From contig CAVHPP010000009.1 of NCBI GenBank assembly GCA_963638105.1, positions 351-64,350 of the forward strand: 64,000 bases of DNA. Direction: 5' to 3'. Source of the DNA: Agathobacter rectalis (GTDB taxonomy: Bacteria; Bacillota; Clostridia; Oscillospirales; Acutalibacteraceae). The position numbers and the translations under genes were made by a program. Shown piece by piece: positions 4,761-45,019 of the stretch; the first letter of the stretch is position 1; each line of letters starts with the position of its first letter. The notes under the pieces were generated by a model, which was given only the letters and a program-made list of their open reading frames with translations, made no database searches and was not told the DNA's origin.

Positions 4761-5377
4761 TGCAGATCAAATCAGCCACCTTTGGCCAGTTGCAGAACAA
4801 CTGCTACCTGGTCACGGACGAAGCCGGCGGCCGCAGTGCCCTGGTGGATTGCACGGAATACAGCGACAAGATGAAAGATTTTATCGGCGACGCCAAGCTG
4901 GATTATATTCTGCTGACCCACGGCCATTTTGACCATATCGGCGGCGTAGCGGCGGTAAAGGCTGCCACCGGCGCCAAGGTGGTTATCAGCGCCGAGGATG
5001 CCCCGATGCTCACTTCCTCTCGCAAGTCGCTGGCGGCGTTTTCGTTTCTCTCTCAAGAGCCGGCGCAGGCGGATATTTTGGTGCAGGACGGCGATACCGT
5101 CACCCTTGGTGGCACGGTCTTTACCGTGCTGGCCACGCCCGGTCACACCCCCGGCGGTGTTTGCTACATTGCAGAGGACTGCATTTTTAGCGGCGACACG
5201 CTGTTTTTCTGCTCTTGCGGGCGCACGGATTTTCCCGGCGGCAGCAGCAAAGAAATTATGGAGAGCCTGCAAAAACTGGCGACCCTGCCCGGGGACTATA
5301 CCGTCTATCCCGGCCACGATCGCTTTTCCACCCTGAATTTTGAACGGCAACATAACCCGTATATGAAGAAATTATGA
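4760..5377 (+). CDS. MBL-fold metallo-hydrolase (glyoxalase II-like)
   Basis: HxHxDH motif (LLTHGHFDHIGG), later TPGHTPG. TAATG overlap with dtd. Confidence 0.85.
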   Translation: MQIKSATFGQLQNNCYLVTDEAGGRSALVDCTEYSDKMKDFIGDAKLDYILLTHGHFDHIGGVAAVKAATGAKVVISAEDAPMLTSSRKSLAAFSFLSQEPAQADILVQDGDTVTLGGTVFTVLATPGHTPGGVCYIAEDCIFSGDTLFFCSCGRTDFPGGSSKEIMESLQKLATLPGDYTVYPGHDRFSTLNFERQHNPYMKKL

Positions 5378-6813
5378 TTTTACGCGTCATTAACCACCCT
5401 TATGAATTTGATATGAAGAACCTGTGCATCACCTTCTTCCCCCATGAGAAGATCCGTTTGGAGGGGGAGGAGGACCCGGTGGTGGTTACCACCCGTCGGG
5501 AGACGGACGGGTCCTTTTTTGTGTCTGCCAAGGTATACGATGTGTACCGGGAGACAACAGCCAAGCCGGAACCGGCAGACGAGGAGCACCTGGTGCTGTC
5601 CGTTACCCTTTATCGGCTGCTTAGCGGTATATTAGGTTTTGCACCCCCTTGGGGCGTGCTGTACGGCGTGCGCCCGGCTAAATTGATGCACCGGCTGTGC
5701 GCCCAAATGGGGGACGATGCGGCGGTTGCACACTTCCAGACTGCCTTTTTGGCCCAAAAAAGCAAGGCGGAGTTGGCCCATGAAGTGATGCTCCATGAGA
5801 ACCGTTCCATTGCTCGCTCCGGGCCAAAGTCGTTCTCTCTCTATGTGTCTATTCCGTTTTGCCCCACCCGGTGCGCTTACTGCTCCTTTGTGTCTCATTC
5901 GATTGAAAAGACCCACAAGCTGATGACCCCTTATGTGGATCTGTTGCTGCGGGAGCTGGAGGAGACAGCCAAGTACGCCAAAGAATTGGGGTTGGAGCTG
6001 GCCACCGTGTATTTCGGCGGCGGCACGCCCACCACATTATCGGCGCAGGATTTAGGGCGCATTTTCAGCACCATTGAACAGAATTTTGACCTTTCGCACC
6101 TGATGGAGTATACGGTGGAGGCCGGTCGACCGGACACGGTCACCCGGGAGCGGCTGGAGGTCATTCAAGCCGCCGGGGTGCAGCGGATCAGCATTAACCC
6201 CCAGAGCTTTAACGACAAGGTACTGGAGGCCATTGGTCGCCGCCATACGGCGCAGCAAACGCTGGACGCCTTTGCGCTGGCGCGGGATTGCGGCTTTGAC
6301 CATATCAATATGGACTTTATCGCCGGGCTGCCGGAGGACGATCTGCCGTCTTTTCAGCGCAGTATTCAAACGGCGCTGGACTTGCAGGCAGAGTCTATTA
6401 CCGTGCACACCTTGGCTCTGAAAACCTCTGCCTATATGGTTACAAGAGAACAGACCTTTGATTTGAAAGATCGGCTCACCGTATCCAATATGGTGGACTA
6501 TGCCGGGCAGACTCTCCACGGCGCCGGATACTATCCCTACTATATGTACCGGCAGAGCAAATCTCTGGGCAATTTGGAGAATGTAGGCTGGTGCAAGCCG
6601 GGTTATGATTGTCTTTATAATGTGTATATGATGGACGAGACCCACACGGTGCTGGCAGTGGGTGCCGGCGCGGTGACCAAGCTGCGGGGCCAAAACAGCG
6701 GTATGATCGAGCGGATCTATAATTATAAATACCCCTATGAGTACATTCGGGATTTTGATACCCTGTTGGAGCGTAAAAAGCGCATACCCGGCTTTTATGC
6801 GGAATATGATTAA
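5374..6813 (+). CDS. hemZ: HemN-family radical SAM protein (HemZ-like coproporphyrinogen dehydrogenase homologue)
   Basis: CxxxCxxC radical SAM motif (CPTRCAYCSF), GGGTPT motif, long N-terminal extension as in HemZ. Confidence 0.8.
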   Translation: MILRVINHPYEFDMKNLCITFFPHEKIRLEGEEDPVVVTTRRETDGSFFVSAKVYDVYRETTAKPEPADEEHLVLSVTLYRLLSGILGFAPPWGVLYGVRPAKLMHRLCAQMGDDAAVAHFQTAFLAQKSKAELAHEVMLHENRSIARSGPKSFSLYVSIPFCPTRCAYCSFVSHSIEKTHKLMTPYVDLLLRELEETAKYAKELGLELATVYFGGGTPTTLSAQDLGRIFSTIEQNFDLSHLMEYTVEAGRPDTVTRERLEVIQAAGVQRISINPQSFNDKVLEAIGRRHTAQQTLDAFALARDCGFDHINMDFIAGLPEDDLPSFQRSIQTALDLQAESITVHTLALKTSAYMVTREQTFDLKDRLTVSNMVDYAGQTLHGAGYYPYYMYRQSKSLGNLENVGWCKPGYDCLYNVYMMDETHTVLAVGAGAVTKLRGQNSGMIERIYNYKYPYEYIRDFDTLLERKKRIPGFYAEYD

Positions 6814-22333: not shown

Positions 22334-22450
22334 AGTCGGTGCTGATTGTGATGAGGGTCCACCCGTTCCCATCCCGAACACGGTAGTTAAGCTCATTCAC
22401 GCTGACAATACTCGGAGGGCGACTTCCCGGGAAGATAAGTAGTGCCGACA
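22334..22450 (+). rRNA. rrf: 5S ribosomal RNA, free-standing copy
   Basis: Conserved loop C/helix III core CCACCCGUUCCCAUCCCGAACACGG and AGUUAAGC. Terminal helix GUCGGUGC.../...GUGCCGAC. About 117 nt. Confidence 0.85.
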
Positions 22451-23740: not shown

Positions 23741-23860
23741 AGTTGTTTCCTCTGTTTTCATTGATTTCTCAGATATAATAACAAAAAAGGACTTCACTTT
23801 CAAGCCGGGATAGTGTAAAATATGGGCAAATCTATTTTACAAACTGGGAGGTGGGCGCCT

Positions 23861-25765
23861 GTGGCCGTTTTAGATGTACAAAACTTAACCTTGTCTTTTG
23901 GGGAGCGCACACTGTTTGCCGGTGTGTCTTTCTCCATCAAAGAGCGGGAGAAAGTGGGCTTTGTTGGCGCCAACGGCGTGGGTAAGACCTCGCTGTTTAA
24001 GGTGATCTGCGGCGACTACACGCCGGACAGCGGCGGCGCCTTTCTCTCTAAAAATTGTAAGCTGGGCTATATGGAGCAGCACACCTGCTCCGCCGGCAAT
24101 ACTGTGTGGAACGAACTGGTCAGCGTGTTTGCGCCGTTAATGGAACTGGAGCGCCAACTGGAGGAAGTGGGCGCGCGCCTGCGCAGCGGGCAAGGGGACA
24201 CAGCGGCGGATATTGCCCTGCAAGACCGTTTGACAGAGCAGTTCCAGCGGGAGGGCGGCCTGACTTATAAATCCATGACCCGCTCGGCGCTGCTGGGGCT
24301 GGGCTTTACGGAAATGCAGTTTGATATGTCCACGGACAAGCTGTCCGGCGGACAGAAGTCTAAGTTGATTTTGGCAAAGCTGCTGCTGTCCAAGGCAGAC
24401 TTTTTGCTGCTGGACGAACCTACCAACCACCTGGATATTCACGCGGTGGAGTGGTTGGAGAGCTTTCTTTCCGATTTTAAGGGCGCCTGCCTGATTGTGT
24501 CCCACGATCGCTATTTCCTGGATCGTATTACGGACAAAACCATTGAACTGGAAAATCAGAAGATCCGCTGCTTTAGCGGCAACTACTCTGTTTTTTTGCA
24601 AAAAAAGGCGGCGGAGCAAAAGGCCATTGCCGAGAAGTACGACAATGATATGAAGGAGATCGCCCGCCTGGAGGGCATTATTGCCCAGCAACGGCAGTGG
24701 AATCGGGAGAAGAATATTAAAACGGCCGAGAGCAAGGAAAAGGTGATCCAGCGTATTCGTGACCAATTGGTCGTGCCGGACGCCAAGTTGCAGAAAATCC
24801 GCTTTGACTTTACCCCCAAGTGCGTTAGCGGTGAGGATGTGCTCAGCTGCGACGGTTTGTCTAAGTCCTTTGATGGCAAAGCGCTGTTCCGTGATGTGTC
24901 CTTTGATATTAAGCGGCAGGAGCGGGTGTTCCTGCTGGGGGATAACGGCTGCGGTAAGACCACGCTGCTTAAAATTCTCACCGGCGAATACCCTCGCCAG
25001 GACGGCACTTTTCGCTTTGGAAGCAACTTACTCACCGGCTACTTTGACCAGGTGCAGGCCAAGCTGGACCTGACTAAAACGGTGATCGGCGAGGTGTGGG
25101 ATACCTTTCCCCAAATGACAGAGACCCGGGTGCGCAATGCGTTGGCGGCGTTTCTGTTTAAGGGAGAAGAGGTGTATCGGCCTTTGTCCGTGTGTTCCGG
25201 CGGTGAGCGTGCTCGTGTGGCACTGCTAAAGTTGATGCTGGGCGGCTATAACTTCCTGCTGCTGGACGAGCCCACCAACCACTTGGACGCAGCCTCACGG
25301 GAAGAACTGGAAAATACGCTGCTTCATTATGACGGCACCATGCTCATTGTGTCCCACGACCGATATTTTATCAATAAGCTGGCTACCCGGGTGCTGGAGC
25401 TGACGCCCACCGGGGTACAAAGCTATACCGGCAATTACGACGACTATATGGCCCATCGTGCGGTCACACAGCAAGGGACAGCTGCCGTTAAAGAAAAACC
25501 AAAGACCAATTCTTATAAAGAGCAAAAGGAGCGGGCCTCCCGTCTGCGCAAGCTGCGCACCGCCGTTACCCGACTGGAAGCGGAGATTGAGGAAACGGAG
25601 ACGGAAATCGAGGAACTGCAAGCGCAGCTGTCTGCCGGTGCGGACTACCAAGCGCTGATGGACCTAACTGCTAAGCTGGACGCAGCCACCGCCCGCAGAG
25701 ACGATCTGTACGCCCGGTGGGAGAATGCAAGCGAGGAACTGTCCGCCGGTGAGGAAGAAGTATGA
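23861..25765 (+). CDS. ABC-F family ATPase (two ABC domains, no TM domain)
   Basis: Two Walker A motifs (GANGVGKT, GDNGCGKT), two LSGG signatures (LSGGQKS, CSGGERA) and a C-terminal coiled coil. GTG at 23861 follows GGGAGGTG. Confidence 0.9.
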   Translation: MAVLDVQNLTLSFGERTLFAGVSFSIKEREKVGFVGANGVGKTSLFKVICGDYTPDSGGAFLSKNCKLGYMEQHTCSAGNTVWNELVSVFAPLMELERQLEEVGARLRSGQGDTAADIALQDRLTEQFQREGGLTYKSMTRSALLGLGFTEMQFDMSTDKLSGGQKSKLILAKLLLSKADFLLLDEPTNHLDIHAVEWLESFLSDFKGACLIVSHDRYFLDRITDKTIELENQKIRCFSGNYSVFLQKKAAEQKAIAEKYDNDMKEIARLEGIIAQQRQWNREKNIKTAESKEKVIQRIRDQLVVPDAKLQKIRFDFTPKCVSGEDVLSCDGLSKSFDGKALFRDVSFDIKRQERVFLLGDNGCGKTTLLKILTGEYPRQDGTFRFGSNLLTGYFDQVQAKLDLTKTVIGEVWDTFPQMTETRVRNALAAFLFKGEEVYRPLSVCSGGERARVALLKLMLGGYNFLLLDEPTNHLDAASREELENTLLHYDGTMLIVSHDRYFINKLATRVLELTPTGVQSYTGNYDDYMAHRAVTQQGTAAVKEKPKTNSYKEQKERASRLRKLRTAVTRLEAEIEETETEIEELQAQLSAGADYQALMDLTAKLDAATARRDDLYARWENASEELSAGEEEV

Positions 25766-40148: not shown

Positions 40149-40179
40149 GGCCGTTGTGCGTATGCACGGCGGCCTTTTT
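40149..40179 (+). terminator. rho-independent terminator closing the groESL transcript
   Basis: Stem GGCCGTTGTGC / GCACGGCGGCC followed by a T5 run. It lies about 125 nt after the groEL stop. Confidence 0.7.
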
Positions 40180-40283
40180 GCGTGATATGGATCGGTTTTG
40201 ACGGAACATAGGTTTATACGCATGGCAGAGCAGTCATCAAAATTGAACACACTGAAATATCTGTACCACTTATCTACAATGTA

Positions 40284-40312
40284 TTGACTTTTTACCTCTT
40301 AGGGGGTACTAT
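40284..40312 (+). promoter_or_regulatory. sigma-A type promoter (TTGACT-17 nt-TACTAT) of the 1429-aa gene
   Basis: Hexamers and spacing counted in the sequence. GGAGGTG RBS at 40360-40366. Confidence 0.6.
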
Positions 40313-40374: not shown

Positions 40375-43300
40375 ATGCGCAAAAAACTAACCGGCAAACG
40401 GCTGATTGCAGTTTTCCTTGCAGTGCTGATGGCACTCACTTGCTTTACTGCTCTGCCTTTTGCTGCTTCTGCCGCCACCCCGGCAACTTCTGCCGGTGGT
40501 AAGTATGTTTTTGCCTATTTTACCGGCAACAACACCAGTGAACAGAAGATTCGCTTTGCTGTTTCTGACGACGGCTACAACTTTACTGCCATCAACGGCA
40601 ACCAGCCTGTTGCAGAGCAGACTACCGGTACCGGCTGTGCCCGTGACCCGTACCTGTTCCGCGGCCAGGACGGCTACTACTATATGGTAGCAACGGATAT
40701 GGACGCTTCCCTTGGCTGGTGGGATGTGAACGACGCTATGACCGTGTGGCGTTCTGCGGATCTGGTAAATTGGTCCGATGAGTCCCATATCTCCATTAAG
40801 GATGTGAAGAATGCAGACGGCACTTCTGCTTTGCCTGCCAATGAAACGGTTCATTGCTTTTGGGCGCCTCAGGTGATCTGGGACGCTTCCACCGGCAAGT
40901 ATATGGTGTATTTCTCTCTGTCCACCTCCAGCTTTACCGGCGGTTCAGAACAGAAGATTTATTATATGCTTACGGACAATCTGATGGATGTGACCCATTA
41001 CAGCGCGCCTCAGTTGCTGTATAAGAATCCCAACGGTGACGCCTCTATTGATGCGGATATTATGTACGACTCCGCAAACGGCATTTATTATATGTATTAT
41101 AAGAATGAGGCGGACGGGGAGAAGACCATCTACTATGTGTCCTCCACGGATCTGAAAGACGCGGAGCAGTATTCCGCCTGCACGCCTGTTAAGGTTTACA
41201 ACAGCCGTTCCACAAAAATGGAGGGGTGCAACTCCCACTTTATTACCGGCACCAACACCATGGTGATGCTGGCAGATGAGTACGGCAACAGCGGTCACTA
41301 TCTGGCGTTCCAGTCTACGGACTTTAAGAACTTTGAAAAGCTCACGGACAGCCAGTATACCTTGAACCAGCTGTCTCCCCGTCACGGCTCCGTGCTGGCC
41401 ATTACCGATGAGGAATATAATACCATGCTCAAGGCCCAGCGCTCTACGGATATGCGCTATCGCTTTGACTCCGACCTGAACCTGACCTCTGACTGGACCT
41501 ATACCAAGCAGACGGATTCCAGCGGCTACACCTATGAGTACCAGCTGAACAAGGCCGGTATTGCAGAGCAGGGCGGCAAGCTGTGGCTCAATCAGGGTCA
41601 GGTGTTTGTCAACGACCCGGTGATTCAGGCACTGATGAAAACAGACAGCTTTACCGTGTCCTTTAGCCACACCCGGCTGACGGACGATAACGACCTGGGC
41701 ACTGCAGGCACCGTGTTTGCACTGGCTGCTGCGGACAAAGACTTTATCCGCGTTGGCTGCGACGGCACGCTTTCCGTTTATTCCGGCGGCGCCAATAAGA
41801 CCGCTGCCAACAAGGTGACCGTACCTGCCGGTCAGGAGGCCAACTATACCATTTCTTATAACGGCAAAGAAACAGTCCTTTATGTGAACGGCAAGCTGGC
41901 CGCCACAGTGGAGGGCGTGATTGATGCCCGGGAAGTAGCCGACGGCGCTGCATTTTATGTGGGTCTTGGCTATTCCGACGCGGCCAACAAAGACAATGCC
42001 GTGCGTATGATCGGCAATTACGGCAACTTGCAGTTCTCTGCCGCTTCTGCCCAGGGTACCCAGTCCCAGCTGACTACGCAGGTGGCTGCCTTTGAGGCCC
42101 TGCTTCAGGGCGGTAAGCTGTACACCAACGCTTCTGCTGCTTACGCTGCTTATGTGCAGGCCAACCGTCTGCTGGACGCTGTGCGTTACGGCGGGGTCGA
42201 TGTGTCTGCTGCCCGGCTGAAAGCAGCCACGGACGCACTGATTGCCGGTATGGCTGCCATGCGGGAATACACCCAGCCCCAGATGGGCAAGGGCTACTTT
42301 GGCACCACGGAGGCCACCGACGGCTACACCGATGTGCTGTACAGCACCAAGGATTATGTGTACAGTGGCGAAACCACCGCTGACAGCTACCAGAGTATCG
42401 GTTATGTGAACTTTAAGATCGCCAGCCCCAGCACCACCGTGCTGCTGAAAAACGGCGACAGCACCCCCGGCTTCCCGGTGGTTGTGGAGAGCAAAAAGAA
42501 AGAGAACAGCAGCGGCAGTATCTTCAACAAAAAGACCACTTACGGCAAGATCGCCTATGTGGCGCCTTTGAGCAGTGGCTTAATGCTCAATCACCTGTGG
42601 TACGGTTATGCGGATGCGGATGGTGCGTATAAAACCTGGCCCGGGAAGACCGCCACCAGCAACAACGCTACCTTTGGTTATCAGGCTGGCACCACGGCAG
42701 ATATGACCGCCAACCAGGACAATACCGGCACTTCCCGGTTCTGGAACAACCAGGCATTCCTGAACCCCACCTTCGGCACCAATGAATATGCCAAGACCTA
42801 CACCGGCTTACAGTTCACCGCCAAGGTGATCGGTAACCGGAACAATGAGAATACTGACAACGCAGCGGAGAACCTGACCCTGAACAGCACCCAGTATGTG
42901 CTTAATTACACGCCCCTGGCAAATGCTGTGGCCGGTCTGGACACCACCACGCAAAAGCAGGTAGCCACCCGGTACAAAGAGGGCGGGCTGGCAGATCTGC
43001 TGGCCAAGGCGGATACCGTTAGCGGTGTCAACCCGGCAGCTTATAACTATGCTTTTGATCTTTCCGGTGCAGTAGCTAACTATCAGGCTGACGCAGCCGC
43101 AGCGATGACTGCTTATCATGCAGCTACGGTAAACACCGCTGCCGATGTTTATACCAACTTGCGCACGGCAATGGACAACTGCATGAGCACCTACGCCGTA
43201 GGCAACACGGTGCTGGATAACGGTTCTACCAAATATGTGACTGCTTTGTGGAGCGACTTTCTACAGGCTTATCAGGCAGCACAGAGCGCTTTTGCCGACC

Positions 43301-44664
43301 TGAAAGATAATGACTATAAAAAGGACGGCAGTGCCCTGCAAACCTTGGCCGATAACTTGCAAAAGGCGTATGACGCCCTGTGCGGTTACGGTGCATACGA
43401 GGCACTGGACAGCGCAGTCAGCCGGGTAAAGACTGTGGTGGCTGCCGGTAAGGACGGCTACTATGCCGCCGACAAGTACCAAGCACTGGAGCAGGCCTTG
43501 ACCGATGTGTTGGCCACCGCCTACACCAAGGACGGCACCGCTTATGCGCTGAGCGAAAAGCAGCAGACGACCATTGACGCTTGCACGGCACAGCTGTTGT
43601 CCGCTTATACCGACTGTATGTACAGCAACCGGTTTAAGGTGACCTTTACCGCAGACGGTCAAACGGTCAGCACCGATTCTTACGACGCCAACGCCACAGT
43701 GACTCTGACTGCACCCAATGCCACCAACGGCACCTGGACCGTCAATGGCGTAACCGTAGCAGGGGAGGGCGCCAGCTACACCTTTGAGGTGGTGGCTGAC
43801 AGCGCCGTAACCTTTACCTCTGCCGCTGCGGCAGATACCGTGACGGTGACCAACCTGTCCGCCTTCGGCGACAGTGTGTACAGCCAGTACGCGGTGACTG
43901 CGGACAAGACCCTGTCTACCGTACTGGCAGCAGCCCCTGCCCGCACTTTGGTGGGCTACCACTTGGACGGCTGGCTTGTGAACGGCCAAAACGCCGCCAA
44001 GTTAGACAGCAGCAAGGCAGTGACTGCCTTTGCTAAGAACGGCACAGTCCTGATCAAGCCGGTGTACAGCGCCAATGCAGGTACATATACCTTTGACGCA
44101 CCGTATACCCTGACTTCCGATGCAGCAGACTTCCTGTGCTGGGCGCTGCCGGTAGACGGCAACACCTATCGTGTGGTCAGCTACTCTGCCACCTATAACT
44201 GCTACGCCACCGGCGCCAAGAGCGACTTTGTGGCAATTACGGAGTCCAACTTCAATCAGTACACCTTGCAGGGTGTGACTTCCATTGTCCAGTTGCAGCA
44301 AAAGGCACCCATTGCTTCCCTGCGCGGCGCTGGGGAAGACGCTTCTTCCCAGAACGGTCAGGTGTGGAACACAGAGATCGGCAAGCTGACCTTTGTGGCG
44401 CAATACACCCAGGGCGCAGACCCGGCCTATACGGTCACCGCCTGCGGCTTGGAGTTCAACAACGGCGCAGACGGTAAGGGCACCAAGACAGTGATCACCA
44501 AGTCCAACAGTCAGACGGACAGCTGCCAGTACCTGATCAGCTACACCTTCAGCAACCCGGCGGGGCAGACCTACTCTGCGCGCAGCTATGTGGTTTATAC
44601 AGACGGCCAGGGTCAGCGCCATACCTCTTACAGCCCGTGGACCAATGTGACTTTGGCAAAATAA
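40375..44664 (+). CDS. secreted multidomain protein: signal peptide, GH43-like five-bladed propeller, LamG/concanavalin-like domain, long uncharacterised C-terminal region with helical FIVAR-like modules and Ig-like repeats
   Basis: Signal peptide MRKKLTGKRLIAVFLAVLMALTCFTALPFAASA. GH43-type catalytic triad contexts RDPYLF, FWAPQV and KMEGCN. A LamG-like segment spans about aa 395-590. Repeated helical Y..A.W..F..A...A motifs. No LPXTG, SLH or choline-binding anchor seen. Confidence 0.75.
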   Translation: MRKKLTGKRLIAVFLAVLMALTCFTALPFAASAATPATSAGGKYVFAYFTGNNTSEQKIRFAVSDDGYNFTAINGNQPVAEQTTGTGCARDPYLFRGQDGYYYMVATDMDASLGWWDVNDAMTVWRSADLVNWSDESHISIKDVKNADGTSALPANETVHCFWAPQVIWDASTGKYMVYFSLSTSSFTGGSEQKIYYMLTDNLMDVTHYSAPQLLYKNPNGDASIDADIMYDSANGIYYMYYKNEADGEKTIYYVSSTDLKDAEQYSACTPVKVYNSRSTKMEGCNSHFITGTNTMVMLADEYGNSGHYLAFQSTDFKNFEKLTDSQYTLNQLSPRHGSVLAITDEEYNTMLKAQRSTDMRYRFDSDLNLTSDWTYTKQTDSSGYTYEYQLNKAGIAEQGGKLWLNQGQVFVNDPVIQALMKTDSFTVSFSHTRLTDDNDLGTAGTVFALAAADKDFIRVGCDGTLSVYSGGANKTAANKVTVPAGQEANYTISYNGKETVLYVNGKLAATVEGVIDAREVADGAAFYVGLGYSDAANKDNAVRMIGNYGNLQFSAASAQGTQSQLTTQVAAFEALLQGGKLYTNASAAYAAYVQANRLLDAVRYGGVDVSAARLKAATDALIAGMAAMREYTQPQMGKGYFGTTEATDGYTDVLYSTKDYVYSGETTADSYQSIGYVNFKIASPSTTVLLKNGDSTPGFPVVVESKKKENSSGSIFNKKTTYGKIAYVAPLSSGLMLNHLWYGYADADGAYKTWPGKTATSNNATFGYQAGTTADMTANQDNTGTSRFWNNQAFLNPTFGTNEYAKTYTGLQFTAKVIGNRNNENTDNAAENLTLNSTQYVLNYTPLANAVAGLDTTTQKQVATRYKEGGLADLLAKADTVSGVNPAAYNYAFDLSGAVANYQADAAAAMTAYHAATVNTAADVYTNLRTAMDNCMSTYAVGNTVLDNGSTKYVTALWSDFLQAYQAAQSAFADLKDNDYKKDGSALQTLADNLQKAYDALCGYGAYEALDSAVSRVKTVVAAGKDGYYAADKYQALEQALTDVLATAYTKDGTAYALSEKQQTTIDACTAQLLSAYTDCMYSNRFKVTFTADGQTVSTDSYDANATVTLTAPNATNGTWTVNGVTVAGEGASYTFEVVADSAVTFTSAAAADTVTVTNLSAFGDSVYSQYAVTADKTLSTVLAAAPARTLVGYHLDGWLVNGQNAAKLDSSKAVTAFAKNGTVLIKPVYSANAGTYTFDAPYTLTSDAADFLCWALPVDGNTYRVVSYSATYNCYATGAKSDFVAITESNFNQYTLQGVTSIVQLQQKAPIASLRGAGEDASSQNGQVWNTEIGKLTFVAQYTQGADPAYTVTACGLEFNNGADGKGTKTVITKSNSQTDSCQYLISYTFSNPAGQTYSARSYVVYTDGQGQRHTSYSPWTNVTLAK

Positions 44665-44676
44665 GGAGAAACAGGA

Positions 44677-44820
44677 ATGAAGAAACTGAAATATACCAAG
44701 CCTGAGGCGGAAGTGGTGCACTTCCAGCTGATGGACGGGGATCTGTACACCCTGTCCGGCGGTCAAAACGGTAACGAGACCGGCGGCGGCAGCGACCCCT
44801 TTGACGACAGCCAGTTTTAA
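44677..44820 (+). CDS. unlisted 47-aa ORF (MKKLKYTKPEAEVVHFQLMDGDLYTLSGGQNGNETGGGSDPFDDSQF), leader-peptide-like
   Basis: AAGGAGA at 44663-44669 lies 7 nt before the ATG and 12 nt after the upstream stop. GC3-rich, host-like codons. A strong terminator follows directly. Too short for the supplied ORF track. Confidence 0.6.
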   Translation: MKKLKYTKPEAEVVHFQLMDGDLYTLSGGQNGNETGGGSDPFDDSQF

Positions 44821-44831
44821 CGGCAACCTTG

Positions 44832-44865
44832 CAGACGGCAGCGCTCTTGCTGCCGTCTGTTTTTA
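44832..44865 (+). terminator. rho-independent terminator
   Basis: 11-bp perfect stem CAGACGGCAGC / GCTGCCGTCTG followed by TTTTTATGTTTT. Confidence 0.9.
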
Positions 44866-44990
44866 TGTTTTGGACAAAAATGTGAAAGTCCTTGCGCATA
44901 AGATACAAGACATTTGGTGAATATCGCATAAAAATAGGCAAAATCACGAAAAAACAGATAAAAAATCGTGAGTAATCGCTCACTTTTCTA

Positions 44991-45019
44991 TTGCAATTTG
45001 GATTTAATGGTGTTATGAT
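44991..45019 (+). promoter_or_regulatory. sigma-A type promoter of gdhA (TTGCAA-17 nt-TATGAT)
   Basis: Hexamers and spacing counted in the sequence, within an AT-rich intergenic region. Confidence 0.6.

What the first reader, a model, noticed from the sequence alone, without database searches (positions are those of the whole stretch)
44677..44820. Unlisted 47-codon ORF coupled to the giant glycosidase gene, with a RiPP/lasso-like leader signature but no maturation genes nearby
Seen in sequence: the ORF encodes MKKLKYTKPEAEVVHFQLMDGDLYTLSGGQNGNETGGGSDPFDDSQF and starts 12 nt after the stop of the 1429-aa gene. It has an AAGGAGA Shine-Dalgarno 7 nt upstream and host-like GC3-rich codons. It ends 11 nt before the strongest terminator in the region. 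It is missing from the ORF track only because it is shorter than 60 aa. Established knowledge: lasso-peptide precursors carry a Y-x-x-P leader motif bound by PqqD-like RRE domains, a Thr at position -2 of the cleavage site, and an Asp/Glu at core position 7-9 that closes the ring. This peptide has KYTKPEAEVV (Y-x-x-P) and a Thr two residues before a possible YTL|SGG cleavage. It has Glu at position 8 of the resulting 21-aa Gly/Asn/Asp-rich core, and Phe16/Phe21 could act as plug residues. The LSGG could alternatively be read as a double-glycine leader end. Inference: it may be an orphan RiPP precursor, or a new kind of small acidic partner peptide of the secreted GH43-like protein. Caveat: no lasso cyclase, leader peptidase, RRE protein, C39-peptidase exporter or radical SAM maturase is encoded in these 64 kb.
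Basis: partly seen in the sequence, partly recalled or inferred. Interest (0 to 1): 0.7.

Follow-up and report, generated by a model that had tools for sequence, protein, structure and literature searches.

The report
Small acidic partner gene of giant glycosidase
A real, conserved 47-codon gene sits directly behind a giant secreted glycosidase-like gene in an uncultured human-gut Oscillospiraceae bacterium; its start resembles a lasso-peptide leader, but no maturation genes were found within reach of the tools, and it looks more like a dedicated small partner of the giant protein, function still unknown.

Summary
ORF 44677-44820 (+) has the stated sequence, Shine-Dalgarno site, 12-nt gap after the 1429-aa gene, and a strong terminator.

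It is a real coding gene. dN/dS is 0.10-0.22, variable sites fall 17/12/35 by codon position, and 60 of 65 loci carry an intact 47-aa product.

By sequence search the family is confined to a few uncultured gut Oscillospiraceae species, always between the giant GH43-related gene and gdhA. However, a distant relative of the giant gene (35% and 24% identity) is followed by a 54-56-aa ORF with the same layout: MKKxxYxxPxxExxxFxLxD...T(x)SGGQ, then an acidic Gly-rich tail ending in Phe. The small gene is therefore tied to the giant gene family.

The lasso reading is weak:
- YxxPx[A/L]EV[V/L] does resemble Clostridial lasso leaders, but scores only 5.5-8 bits.
- Its spacing to the proposed cleavage site is 3-4 residues too long.
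- Curated models do not match.
- The putative ring/loop region carries natural in-frame indels.
- No RRE, B/C, C39 or maturase genes occur in about 73 kb; the only radical SAM gene is HemZ.

Best reading: an unmodified, bipartite small partner protein of the giant exoprotein. A trans-matured RiPP or a double-glycine peptide remains possible.

The parts
40375..44664 (+). Giant secreted protein gene (1429 aa). It has a Sec signal peptide, a GH43-related N-terminal domain, a LamG-like region, a long helical repeat region and beta-rich C-terminal domains. It is the upstream operon partner of the small ORF.
   Evidence: Translation shows the signal peptide. NF052546 arabinofuranosidase-like hit at 1.7e-25. 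Orthologues carry precomputed PF22847 Glyco_hydro_43_rel and PF13385. Weak PDB hit to GH159 7zei. Promoter-like sites at 40252-40312 follow the groEL terminator at 40149-40174.
44663..44669 (+). Shine-Dalgarno sequence AAGGAGA. It overlaps the giant gene's TAA stop and lies 7 nt before the ATG, a layout that suggests translational coupling.
   Evidence: TAAGGAG is conserved in all aligned orthologues and in L012.
44677..44820 (+). Small ORF: 47 codons plus TAA. The product is acidic (pI 4.45, 5.15 kDa) and has no signal peptide and no Cys.
   Evidence: Coding status rests.
44692..44724 (+). Codons 6-16, Y-T-K-P-E-A-E-V-V-H-F. This is the leader-like / RRE-motif-like N-terminal element.
   Evidence: Y6, V13 and F16 are invariant and P9 nearly so in the family. 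Y, P, E and F are also kept in L069. The motif definition comes from PMC13381572.
44710..44757 (+). Codons 12-27: a predicted amphipathic beta-hairpin (strands 13-17 and 23-27 around the turn M-D-G-D). It ends in the conserved Y-T-L-S that precedes GGQ.
   Evidence: AlphaFold2 model from 12 sequences: strands E13-17 and E23-27, block pLDDT 71-76. L18, D20, G21, Y24, L26 and S27 are invariant.
44758..44793 (+). Codons 28-39, GGQNGNETGGGS: a flexible Gly/Asn-rich linker that tolerates indels. In the lasso reading it would be the ring and loop.
   Evidence: pLDDT is below 50 for residues 30-38. Natural alleles show +8, -6, -1 and -8 aa changes here. The corresponding region is longer and more acidic in L069.
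44794..44817 (+). Codons 40-47, D-P-F-D-D-S-Q-F: an acidic tail ending in Phe.
   Evidence: P41, F42 and F47 are invariant in the family. L012 has DPFNEDEF and L069 ends in YESEF.
44831..44870 (+). Intrinsic terminator that closes the giant-gene/small-ORF transcription unit: a 13-bp stem, 4-nt loop and T-run.
   Evidence: -26 kcal/mol. L012 has a hairpin of different sequence at the same place, and so does L069.

Best explanation
The ORF is a genuine, translated small-protein gene. It forms a two-gene operon with the giant GH43-related exoprotein gene and works with, or on behalf of, that protein rather than as a stand-alone natural-product precursor.

Shown:
- It is co-transcribed with the giant gene: no promoter lies between them and one shared terminator follows.
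- It is positioned for translational coupling, because the Shine-Dalgarno site overlaps the giant gene's stop codon.
- It evolves under purifying selection.
- A recognisable counterpart follows a very distant homologue of the giant gene.

Inferred architecture: a bipartite peptide.
- A conserved N-terminal docking module: the extended Y-x-x-P segment plus an amphipathic beta-hairpin ending in T-(x)-S-G-G-Q.
- A length-variable, disordered Gly/Asn/Asp-rich linker.
- An acidic tip ending in Phe.

Inferred mechanism (speculative). The peptide has no signal peptide, so it is made in the cytoplasm, next to the just-finished C-terminus of the giant pre-protein. There it binds by beta-strand addition through its hydrophobic hairpin face. 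The acidic tail keeps the complex soluble or export-competent, or engages a second partner through the terminal Phe.
For: Real gene:
- dN/dS is 0.10-0.22.
- There is a third-position excess of variable sites, 17/12/35.
- 60 of 65 loci carry an intact 47-aa product.
- The exact peptide occurs in 166 blocks of the public collection.

Operon layout:
- Searches show the layout. The same layout occurs in every contig and in the most divergent orthologue, L012, where the giant is 84% and the peptide 68% identical.

Deep linkage:
- L069 carries a GH43_rel gene (35% identical), then a 1647-aa protein homologous to giant residues 564-891 (E 1e-13).
- About 21 nt later comes MKKKNYETPWVEIEWFTLSDVVRTSGGQ...YESEF, followed by a terminator.
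- Peptide-to-peptide local alignment scores 55, against 25 +/- 4.9 for shuffles (p about 1e-4). For the N-terminal 30 residues, none of 20,000 shuffles reached the observed score.
- A GH43_rel+LamG homologue that lacks the long C-terminal part (L067) has no such ORF.

Architecture:
- AlphaFold2 predicts a hairpin plus a disordered linker.
- Natural indels are confined to the linker.

No enzymes:
-.
Against: - No experimental or structural evidence of binding exists. The AlphaFold2 model of the giant C-terminal region fused to the peptide was uninformative (mean pLDDT 45).
- The giant protein is Sec-exported while the peptide has no export signal, so the two share a compartment only transiently.
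- The deep linkage rests on a single distant locus (L069), and the family HMM does not detect that peptide (3.8 bits).
- A conserved N-terminus with a variable C-terminus, and the conserved S-G-G-Q junction, are also what a leader/core peptide would show.
- The Y-x-x-P-x-[L/A]-E-V-[L/V] resemblance to lasso leaders is unexplained under this model.
Confidence: 0.45

Rival explanations
1. It is an orphan RRE-dependent RiPP precursor, lasso-like or of an undescribed class. A PqqD-type RRE encoded elsewhere in the genome would bind the Y-x-x-P-x-[A/L] leader. The peptide would be cut after Y-T-L (window) or R-T-S (L069), and the acidic core would be cyclised (S1-E8 or G1-D7/D8/E9) or otherwise modified.
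For: - The N-terminus fits the published RRE-binding motif [Y/W]xxPx[L/V/I/F/A]. The L009/L012 variants read K-L-K-Y-I-K-P-Q-L-E-V-L, the same contact pattern (K..W..P.LEVL) described for PbaA.
- It closely resembles Lachnospira leaders such as MKTWTKPELEVLAIEETAQ.
- It is the only one of 527 window sORFs reported by a Clostridial lasso-leader HMM.
- Thr(-2), a small residue at +1 and an acid at +7 to +9 can be placed in both lineages.
- The pattern of conserved N-terminus and variable C-terminus is RiPP-like.
Against: - The HMM score is only 5.5-8 bits (p about 2e-4 to 7e-4 per sequence) and covers nodes 1-12 only; the E-T-A cleavage half does not align.
- Tyr is 20-21 residues from the cleavage site, instead of about 15-17 (table).
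- NCBIfam and Pfam precursor models give nothing at E<=1.
- No RRE, B2 protease, cyclase, kinase or transporter occurs in 64 kb plus about 9 kb more, nor on L069.
- Natural alleles add 8 or remove 6, 8 or 1 residues inside the putative ring/loop/tail, remove Y-T-L, or change T25 to N. That is hard to reconcile with a sterically locked lasso.
- Synteny with a non-RiPP gene is kept across very deep divergence.
Confidence: 0.17
2. It is a double-glycine-leader peptide. A C39-peptidase ABC exporter encoded elsewhere would cleave residues 1-29 after S-G-G. This would release a very acidic 18-mer (QNGNETGGGSDPFDDSQF; a 26-mer in L069) that acts outside the cell, for example as a signal or as a ligand of the giant exoprotein.
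For: - L18-x-x-x-D22-L23-x-x-L26-x-G-G fits the classical consensus L(-12)xxxE(-8)L(-7)xxI(-4)xGG (established knowledge, Havarstein et al. 1995).
- S-G-G-Q is conserved between the window family and L069.
- The length-variable region begins right after GG.
- Export would put the peptide in the same compartment as the giant protein.
Against: - The orthologue in L012 has S-D-G, with Asp at -2.
- Position -15 is His.
- L069 has Thr at -4.
- No double-glycine leader family in Pfam or NCBIfam matches.
- No C39/ABC exporter is found in the window (the only ABC protein, at 23822-25765, is an ABC-F type) or on L069.
- Allele P0010 lacks Y-T-L.
Confidence: 0.13
3. It is a small cytoplasmic protein whose function is unrelated to the giant protein and which merely shares its transcript. 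One possibility is an acidic tail-with-terminal-Phe mimic that binds some other cellular protein.
For: - The peptide lacks any export signal.
- The build of disordered Gly/Asn/Gln linker plus acidic tip ending in Phe recalls the C-terminal tails of SSB-type proteins (own knowledge; not tested).
- No binding to the giant protein has been shown.
Against: - Linkage to the giant gene is kept in all 65 loci and in the distant L069 lineage.
- The Shine-Dalgarno site overlaps the giant gene's stop codon.
- An exhaustive HMMER search of 1.84 billion representatives found no family member outside this context.
Confidence: 0.15
4. It is not a gene: a chance ORF, or sequence conserved for an RNA or terminator function.
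For: Short ORFs are abundant here. About 5% of database versions are frameshifted or read through.
Against: - dN/dS is 0.10-0.22 and there is a third-position excess of variable sites.
- Start, stop, length and Shine-Dalgarno site are conserved.
- There is no Rfam match.
- Most broken versions come from low-coverage or error-prone assemblies. L065 is an example, and so is L001, whose groEL and gdhA are also fragmented.
Confidence: 0.03

Closest known systems
Lasso-peptide precursors of Bacillota (paeninodin-like PbaA/PadeA; predicted LasA of Lachnospira, Butyrivibrio, Ruminococcus)
   Same: A short precursor-sized peptide starting MKK. It has [Y/W]-x-x-P-x-[L/V/I/F/A] followed by E-V-[L/V], which is the segment that docks as a beta-strand on the RRE. 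It has an acidic C-terminal part, and a Thr, a small residue and an acid can be placed like T(-2), residue 1 and the ring acid.
   Different: - The distance from the motif to the cleavage site is 3-5 residues longer.
- Residue 1 is not consistently Gly.
- Curated models do not match, and the match to a home-made leader model is only weak and partial.
- There are no B1/B2/C/D genes nearby.
- Indels occur in the would-be ring and loop.
- The gene is locked to a giant glycosidase-like gene instead of a biosynthetic cluster.
Linear polyphosphorylated peptide (LPP) precursors (LppA; PMC13381572)
   Same: A Y-x-x-P leader recognised by a discrete RRE. The N-terminus is conserved and the C-terminus highly variable. 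The genes sit among polysaccharide-related genes. The precursor stays linear.
   Different: The extended LPP motif YxxPxVLxHQxIxFETxxS is not matched beyond YxxP. No SipW-like peptidase, HprK-like kinase, RRE or MsbA-like pump is nearby.
Double-glycine leader peptides (class II bacteriocins, ComC-type pheromones)
   Same: There is a hydrophobic/acidic periodicity before G-G. The variable 'mature' part begins right after GG. The size is small.
   Different: The peptide additionally has a YxxP N-terminus. One orthologue has D-G. The product would be strongly anionic. There is no C39 exporter or immunity gene nearby, and no family model matches.
Small accessory or escort proteins encoded next to large secreted proteins (for example, the small partner proteins of LXG toxins, or type III secretion chaperones)
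   Same: A small, acidic, leaderless protein encoded in the same operon as a very large exported protein, and co-inherited with it.
   Different: Those partners are helical, usually 90-150 aa, serve non-Sec pathways and share no sequence similarity with this peptide. Here the cargo has a normal Sec signal peptide and the partner is only 47 aa with a beta-hairpin prediction. The comparison rests on general knowledge and was not tested.

Membership tests
Lasso-peptide precursor | RRE-binding leader motif [Y/W]xxPx[L/V/I/F/A] near the N-terminus | tested here: met
   The window has Y6-T-K-P9-E-A11. L009 and L012 have Y-I-K-P-Q-L, and L069 has Y-E-T-P-W-V. The L003 clade has Thr at the last position. 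The motif is as defined in PMC13381572.
Lasso-peptide precursor | Penultimate leader Thr at the canonical distance from the YxxP motif (Y/W about 15-17 residues before the cleavage site) | tested here: not met
   Thr(-2) is only obtained with Tyr at -21 (window, cut Y-T-L|S) or -20 (L069, cut R-T-S|G). In the 35 predicted precursors (29 distinct leaders) in PMC7533575 Table 3, the W/Y sits about 15-17 residues from the cut. Alleles with T25N and with Y-T-L deleted exist.
Lasso-peptide precursor | Core residue 1 is Gly (or Ala/Ser/Cys) and Asp/Glu lies at core position 7-9 | tested here: inconclusive
   S27...E34 (position 8) in the window family and G...D7/D8/E9 in L069 can be fitted. But the cut must shift by one residue between lineages, and the region is acid-rich, so the fit has little weight.
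Lasso-peptide precursor | Encoded next to a lasso cyclase (Asn-synthetase-like), a leader peptidase (transglutaminase-like B/B2) and an RRE (PqqD-like B1) | tested here: not met
   Pfam scans of all ORFs of at least 150 aa and of the gap ORFs in the 64-kb window found none. None is present in a further 9 kb or on L069. The rest of the genome could not be read.
Lasso-peptide precursor | Match to curated or home-made precursor/leader profiles | tested here: not met
   NCBIfam and Pfam give nothing relevant at E<=1. An HMM of 29 Clostridial leaders gives 5.5-8 bits over nodes 1-12 of 19.
Lasso-peptide precursor | Mature product has a threaded lariat topology (-18 Da, protease and heat stable) | not testable with these tools
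   This needs LC-MS/MS or NMR. Natural +8, -6, -8 and -1 aa alleles in the putative ring/loop/tail argue indirectly against a sterically locked fold.
Linear polyphosphorylated peptide (LPP) precursor | Leader consensus YxxPxVLxHQxIxFETxxS, and a cluster with SipW-like peptidase, RRE, HprK-like kinase, NTP-transferase and MsbA-like pump | tested here: not met
   Only YxxP aligns; positions 6-19 of the consensus do not (comparison). None of the cluster genes is in the window.
Double-glycine leader peptide | G-G (or G-A/G-S) at -2/-1, with hydrophobic residues at -4, -7, -12 and -15 and an acidic residue at -8 | tested here: inconclusive
   In the window, G28-G29, L26, L23, D22 and L18 fit, while -15 is His. 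L069 keeps S-G-G with D(-8), V(-7) and F(-12) but has T at -4. L012 has D at -2. The consensus is from general knowledge.
Double-glycine leader peptide | Dedicated C39-peptidase ABC exporter nearby; match to leader family models | tested here: not met
   There is no Peptidase_C39 domain in the window, and the only ABC ATPase is ABC-F type. Neither Pfam nor NCBIfam matches the peptide.
Protein-coding small gene (general) | Purifying selection in the reading frame, with conserved start, stop and ribosome-binding site | tested here: met
   dN/dS is 0.10-0.22. Variable sites are 17/12/35 by codon position. A 47-aa product occurs in 60 of 65 loci. The Shine-Dalgarno site is conserved.

The most novel reading that the evidence does not exclude
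A leader-peptide-like docking motif (YxxP plus beta-strand, as used by RiPP recognition elements) may have been co-opted in a small protein that is an obligate partner of a family of giant GH43-related exoproteins in gut Clostridia. Alternatively, the peptide is the precursor of a new, very acidic RiPP or exported peptide that is matured entirely in trans and acts on the giant enzyme. Either way this would be an undescribed small-protein/giant-glycosidase module in a prevalent uncultured human-gut lineage.
Probability: 0.2. Interest if true: 0.7.

Novelty: new variant of a known kind. Interest (0 to 1): 0.42.

Why it matters
The organism is a prevalent, uncultured human-gut Oscillospiraceae: the exact peptide occurs in 166 blocks of the public assembly collection. 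The giant GH43-related exoprotein is probably part of how it deals with glycans.

A conserved, unannotated 47-aa partner gene is a concrete handle on how such giant exoproteins are made, exported or regulated. It also shows that small genes can be missed by length cut-offs and by profile searches: the distant relative was found only through synteny.

If the peptide proves to be matured in trans, it would be a rare example of a RiPP-like precursor separated from its enzymes and tied to a carbohydrate-active protein. If it is unmodified, it cautions that YxxP-type 'leader signatures' alone over-predict RiPPs.

Tried and rejected
1. **Sequence-family searches for the peptide.**
   - Pfam and NCBIfam at E<=1 gave nothing relevant.
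   - The word-indexed search of 5.8 billion proteins returned only close relatives.
   - An exhaustive HMMER profile search of 1.84 billion representatives gave 8 hits, all from the same family or broken copies of it.
   - A metagenome scan found 43 loci, all the same species group. The 57% hit, L065, is an error-ridden 1.6x-coverage contig.
   - A degenerate DNA motif scan of viral contigs gave 0 hits.
   - Full-text searches for the peptide sequences gave 0 papers.
3. **Paralogues in the window:** none.
4. **RNA explanation:** no Rfam match at the locus.
5. **Read-through fusion with the giant gene:** rejected. The ORF is in frame in the window, but 58 of 65 loci have an 11-nt spacer.
6. **Extending the genomic view.** Three look-ups of window-edge proteins found nothing on record. 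One gave about 9 kb more, with no RiPP genes. The whole genome could not be scanned.
7. **AlphaFold2 of the giant C-terminal 193 aa fused to the peptide** (single sequence): mean pLDDT 45, with block means of 28-38 over the peptide part, so uninformative. An alignment for the fusion mis-aligned and was dropped.
8. **Other homologues of the giant gene.** L067/L068 (645 aa, no long C-terminal part) have no downstream small ORF. L070 was uninformative.
9. **An SSB-tail or clamp-binding-motif reading of the C-terminus** was considered from memory only. The SSB tip consensus ([DE][DE][DE][IL]PF, from memory) and the clamp-binding motif (QLxLF) do not fit.
10. **The radical SAM gene at 5374-6813** is HemZ, not a maturase.
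Full report
**Observation.** The window sequence shows an ATG at 44677 and a TAA at 44818-44820. The translation is MKKLKYTKPEAEVVHFQLMDGDLYTLSGGQNGNETGGGSDPFDDSQF. The upstream 1429-aa ORF ends at 44664. AAGGAGA (44663-44669) overlaps its stop codon and lies 7 nt before the ATG. The strongest terminator-like hairpin in 38-47 kb is at 44831-44860: a 13-bp stem plus a T-run, folding at -26 kcal/mol. It begins 10 nt after the stop. GC3 of the ORF is 0.77, against 0.66-0.69 for neighbouring genes.

**Is it a gene?** An ORF of this length is not significant by itself, because 104 ORFs of at least 30 aa overlap these 12 kb. Comparative data settle the matter.
- The protein database holds about 20 clusters of close homologues. 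The exact peptide is listed in 166 blocks of the assembly collection, always after the giant gene.
- I extracted the ORF from 65 related loci. Sixty encode an intact 47-aa product.
- Among 27 distinct DNA alleles, 17, 12 and 35 sites vary at codon positions 1, 2 and 3.
- Pairwise dN/dS is 0.10-0.22 at dS 0.5-1.5. The giant gene's last 449 codons give 0.06 and gdhA gives 0.02-0.03.
- The single outlier (dN/dS 0.96) involves an 821-bp contig at 2x coverage.
- Broken versions are rare and mostly come from poor assemblies: L001 also has fragmented groEL and gdhA, and L065 is riddled with frameshifts. One 1-nt deletion allele does recur in two assemblies.

The ORF is thus a real protein-coding gene under moderate purifying selection.

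**Context and organism.** The window is ordinary chromosome of a spore-forming Clostridia. It carries recJ, relA, dtd, hemZ, yabP/yabQ, spoIIGA-sigE, ispD/F, groES/EL, gdhA and the pyr operon. The GroEL is identical to database entries named Oscillospiraceae bacterium, all from metagenomes. Only two GTDB species representatives carry the giant gene's C-terminal region.

Synteny is groES-groEL, giant gene, small ORF, terminator, gdhA, and it holds in all contigs.

No lasso cyclase, B protease, PqqD-like RRE, C39 exporter or SPASM maturase occurs in the 64 kb, nor in about 9 kb beyond its right end. The one radical SAM protein, at 5374-6813, is HemZ (TIGR03994, 2.8e-153).

**How wide is the family?** By sequence it looks closed.
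- An exhaustive HMMER profile search of 1.84 billion representative proteins found only the family itself and broken copies of it.
- A metagenome scan found only the same species group.

Synteny reaches further. The giant protein's N-terminal 560 aa have many GH43-related relatives. One of them, P0093 (35% identical), lies on contig L069. There it is followed by a 1647-aa protein and then a 56-aa ORF. The 1647-aa protein is homologous to giant residues 564-891 (24% identity, E 1e-13). Its C-terminus resembles the giant's, although that part of the comparison is by eye only.

The small ORF starts 21 nt after the large gene and has a GGAGG-type ribosome-binding site. It is followed by a hairpin terminator and encodes M(CM)KKKNYETPWVEIEWFTLSDVVRTSGGQDQYDDEDDDDNPGGGGSGQNSYESEF.

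Its layout matches the window peptide:
- M-K-K-x-x-Y-x-x-P-x-x-E-x-x-x-F-x-L-x-D, then T-(x)-S-G-G-Q;
- an acidic Gly-rich low-complexity stretch;
- a C-terminal [S/D]-[Q/E]-F.

A family HMM does not detect it (3.8 bits). The pairwise local score is 55, against 25 +/- 4.9 for 20,000 shuffles (p about 1e-4), and none of the shuffles reached the observed score for the N-terminal 30 residues. Combined with the identical position, this makes common descent the best reading. A shorter GH43_rel+LamG homologue without the long C-terminal part has no such ORF (L067). The small gene therefore travels with the giant-protein family, not with any biosynthetic enzyme.

**Anatomy.**
- Conservation within the family: M1, Y6, K8, V13, F16, L18, D20, G21, Y24, L26, S27, G29-E34, G37, G38, P41, F42 and F47 are invariant or nearly so.
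- AlphaFold2 with the 12-sequence alignment predicts a beta-hairpin (strands 13-17 and 23-27, block pLDDT 71-76). The linker is disordered (residues 30-38, pLDDT below 50) and the tail is moderately confident.
- Natural alleles carry in-frame indels only in the linker and tail: +8 aa (a duplicated GGQNGNE[S/T] unit), -6, -1, and a 39-aa allele lacking GSDPFDDS. One allele lacks Y-T-L.
- The peptide has no signal peptide and no Cys. Its net charge is about -4 and its pI 4.45.

**The lasso/RiPP reading.** The published RRE-binding motif of Bacillota lasso and LPP leaders is [Y/W]xxPx[L/V/I/F/A]. The PbaA leader contacts its RRE through K-18, W-15, P-12, L-10, E-9, V-8 and L-7 (PMC13381572). The family fits this: the window has K-L-K-Y-T-K-P-E-A-E-V-V, and L009/L012 have K-L-K-Y-I-K-P-Q-L-E-V-L. 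It also resembles predicted Lachnospira leaders such as MKTWTKPELEVLAIEETAQ (PMC7533575 Table 3).

Quantitatively it is weak. An HMM of 29 Clostridial leaders reports the family as the only hit among 527 window sORFs, but with only 5.5-8 bits, and it aligns only nodes 1-12 of 19.

Further points against:
- The cleavage half (E-T-A-x|G) does not align. Thr(-2) can only be had with Tyr at -20 or -21, rather than about -15 to -17.
- Residue 1 would be Ser in one lineage and Gly in the other.
- Curated models do not match.
- Indels in the would-be ring and loop are hard to square with a threaded lasso.
- No maturation genes accompany the gene in either lineage.
- The LPP consensus YxxPxVLxHQxIxFETxxS is not matched beyond YxxP.

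I rate an RRE-dependent RiPP, matured in trans, at about 0.17.

**The double-glycine reading.** L18-x-x-x-D22-L23-x-x-L26-x-G-G fits the classical leader consensus (general knowledge), and L069 keeps S-G-G-Q. However, L012 has S-D-G, no leader model matches, and no C39 exporter is in view. I rate it at about 0.13.

**Best explanation.** I favour a small, unmodified, bipartite protein that is an operon partner of the giant GH43-related exoprotein.
- Shown: the coding status, the operon layout, the coupling geometry, and the co-inheritance with the giant gene across deep divergence.
- Inferred: the N-terminal YxxP-plus-hairpin module is a docking element, and the acidic, Phe-terminated tail is a flexible effector or solubility arm.
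- Speculative: the peptide is made beside the just-completed C-terminus of the giant pre-protein and acts on it before export.

A direct test was uninformative. AlphaFold2 of the last 193 residues of the giant fused to the peptide, run as a single sequence, gave a mean pLDDT of 45.

**Novelty and interest.** No described family contains this peptide, and no paper in the searchable library holds its sequence. It is best described as a new variant at the border of known kinds: leader-type peptides and small accessory proteins. The finding is solid as a missed gene and as a conserved small-gene/giant-gene pair in a prevalent gut lineage. Its function is unproven, and the exciting orphan-lasso reading is not supported. 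Interest is moderate, at 0.42.

Noticed in passing
window 22335-22450 (+): A lone 5S rRNA gene (Rfam RF00001, 88 bits) lies directly downstream of spoIIGA-sigE. There is no 16S or 23S rRNA gene anywhere in the 64 kb.
   Followed up: no
window 44968-44983: The perfect palindrome GTGAGTAATCGCTCAC lies just upstream of the predicted gdhA promoter (TTGCAA at 44991 ... TATGAT). It is invariant in the window, L003, L009 and L012, although the flanking intergenic DNA diverges. It is a candidate operator for gdhA regulation.
   Followed up: partly
window 44662-44679; 65 related loci: In the window the small ORF is in frame with the giant gene (TAA GGA GAA ACA GGA ATG, a 12-nt spacer). However, 58 of 65 loci have an 11-nt spacer, so stop-codon read-through into the peptide is not a conserved feature.
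   Followed up: yes
P0002, P0005, P0010, P0016, P0067/L063; L001/L062 and L002: Natural alleles of the peptide exist. One has an 8-aa duplication of GGQNGNE[S/T]. Others have deletions of 6, 1 and 3 (Y-T-L) residues. A 39-aa allele lacks GSDPFDDS. A 1-nt deletion in a C4 run gives a 74-aa read-through product and is seen in two assemblies.
   Followed up: partly
P0014 (633-bp contig): This variant has the normal first 33 residues but then continues with a different, longer acidic Gly/Ser/Asp-rich tail (…GGGDDSGSGDGSGDDAGRSDGTEGGEAA) without the DPF...F end. It may be a chimeric assembly or a real divergent allele.
   Followed up: no
L003 11019-14587, L004, L015/L016/L019 (downstream of gdhA): Cargo after gdhA varies between strains. 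Some strains carry an extra 717-746-aa Flg_new-like protein and a second LRR/fn3 surface protein between the LRR/fn3 gene and the Mbeg1-like gene. The window strain does not.
   Followed up: no
L069 5152-11849: In the distant lineage the giant protein is split into a 569-aa signal-peptide GH43_rel/LamG protein and a 1647-aa protein without a signal peptide, 45 nt apart. This is either a frameshift in the assembly or a genuine two-gene version. A further Big_2 protein of more than 1271 aa follows the small ORF.
   Followed up: partly
window 40375-41400 (giant residues about 43-340): The N-terminal catalytic-like domain is only weakly related to characterised enzymes: NF052546 arabinofuranosidase at 1.7e-25, far below its cut-off, and PDB 7zei GH159 at E 0.003. 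The window copy had no Pfam hit at E<=1, although orthologues carry a precomputed PF22847. Its substrate is unknown.
   Followed up: no
It is HemZ (TIGR03994, 511 bits), in the usual relA-dtd-MBL-hemZ arrangement, and is not a peptide maturase.
   Followed up: yes
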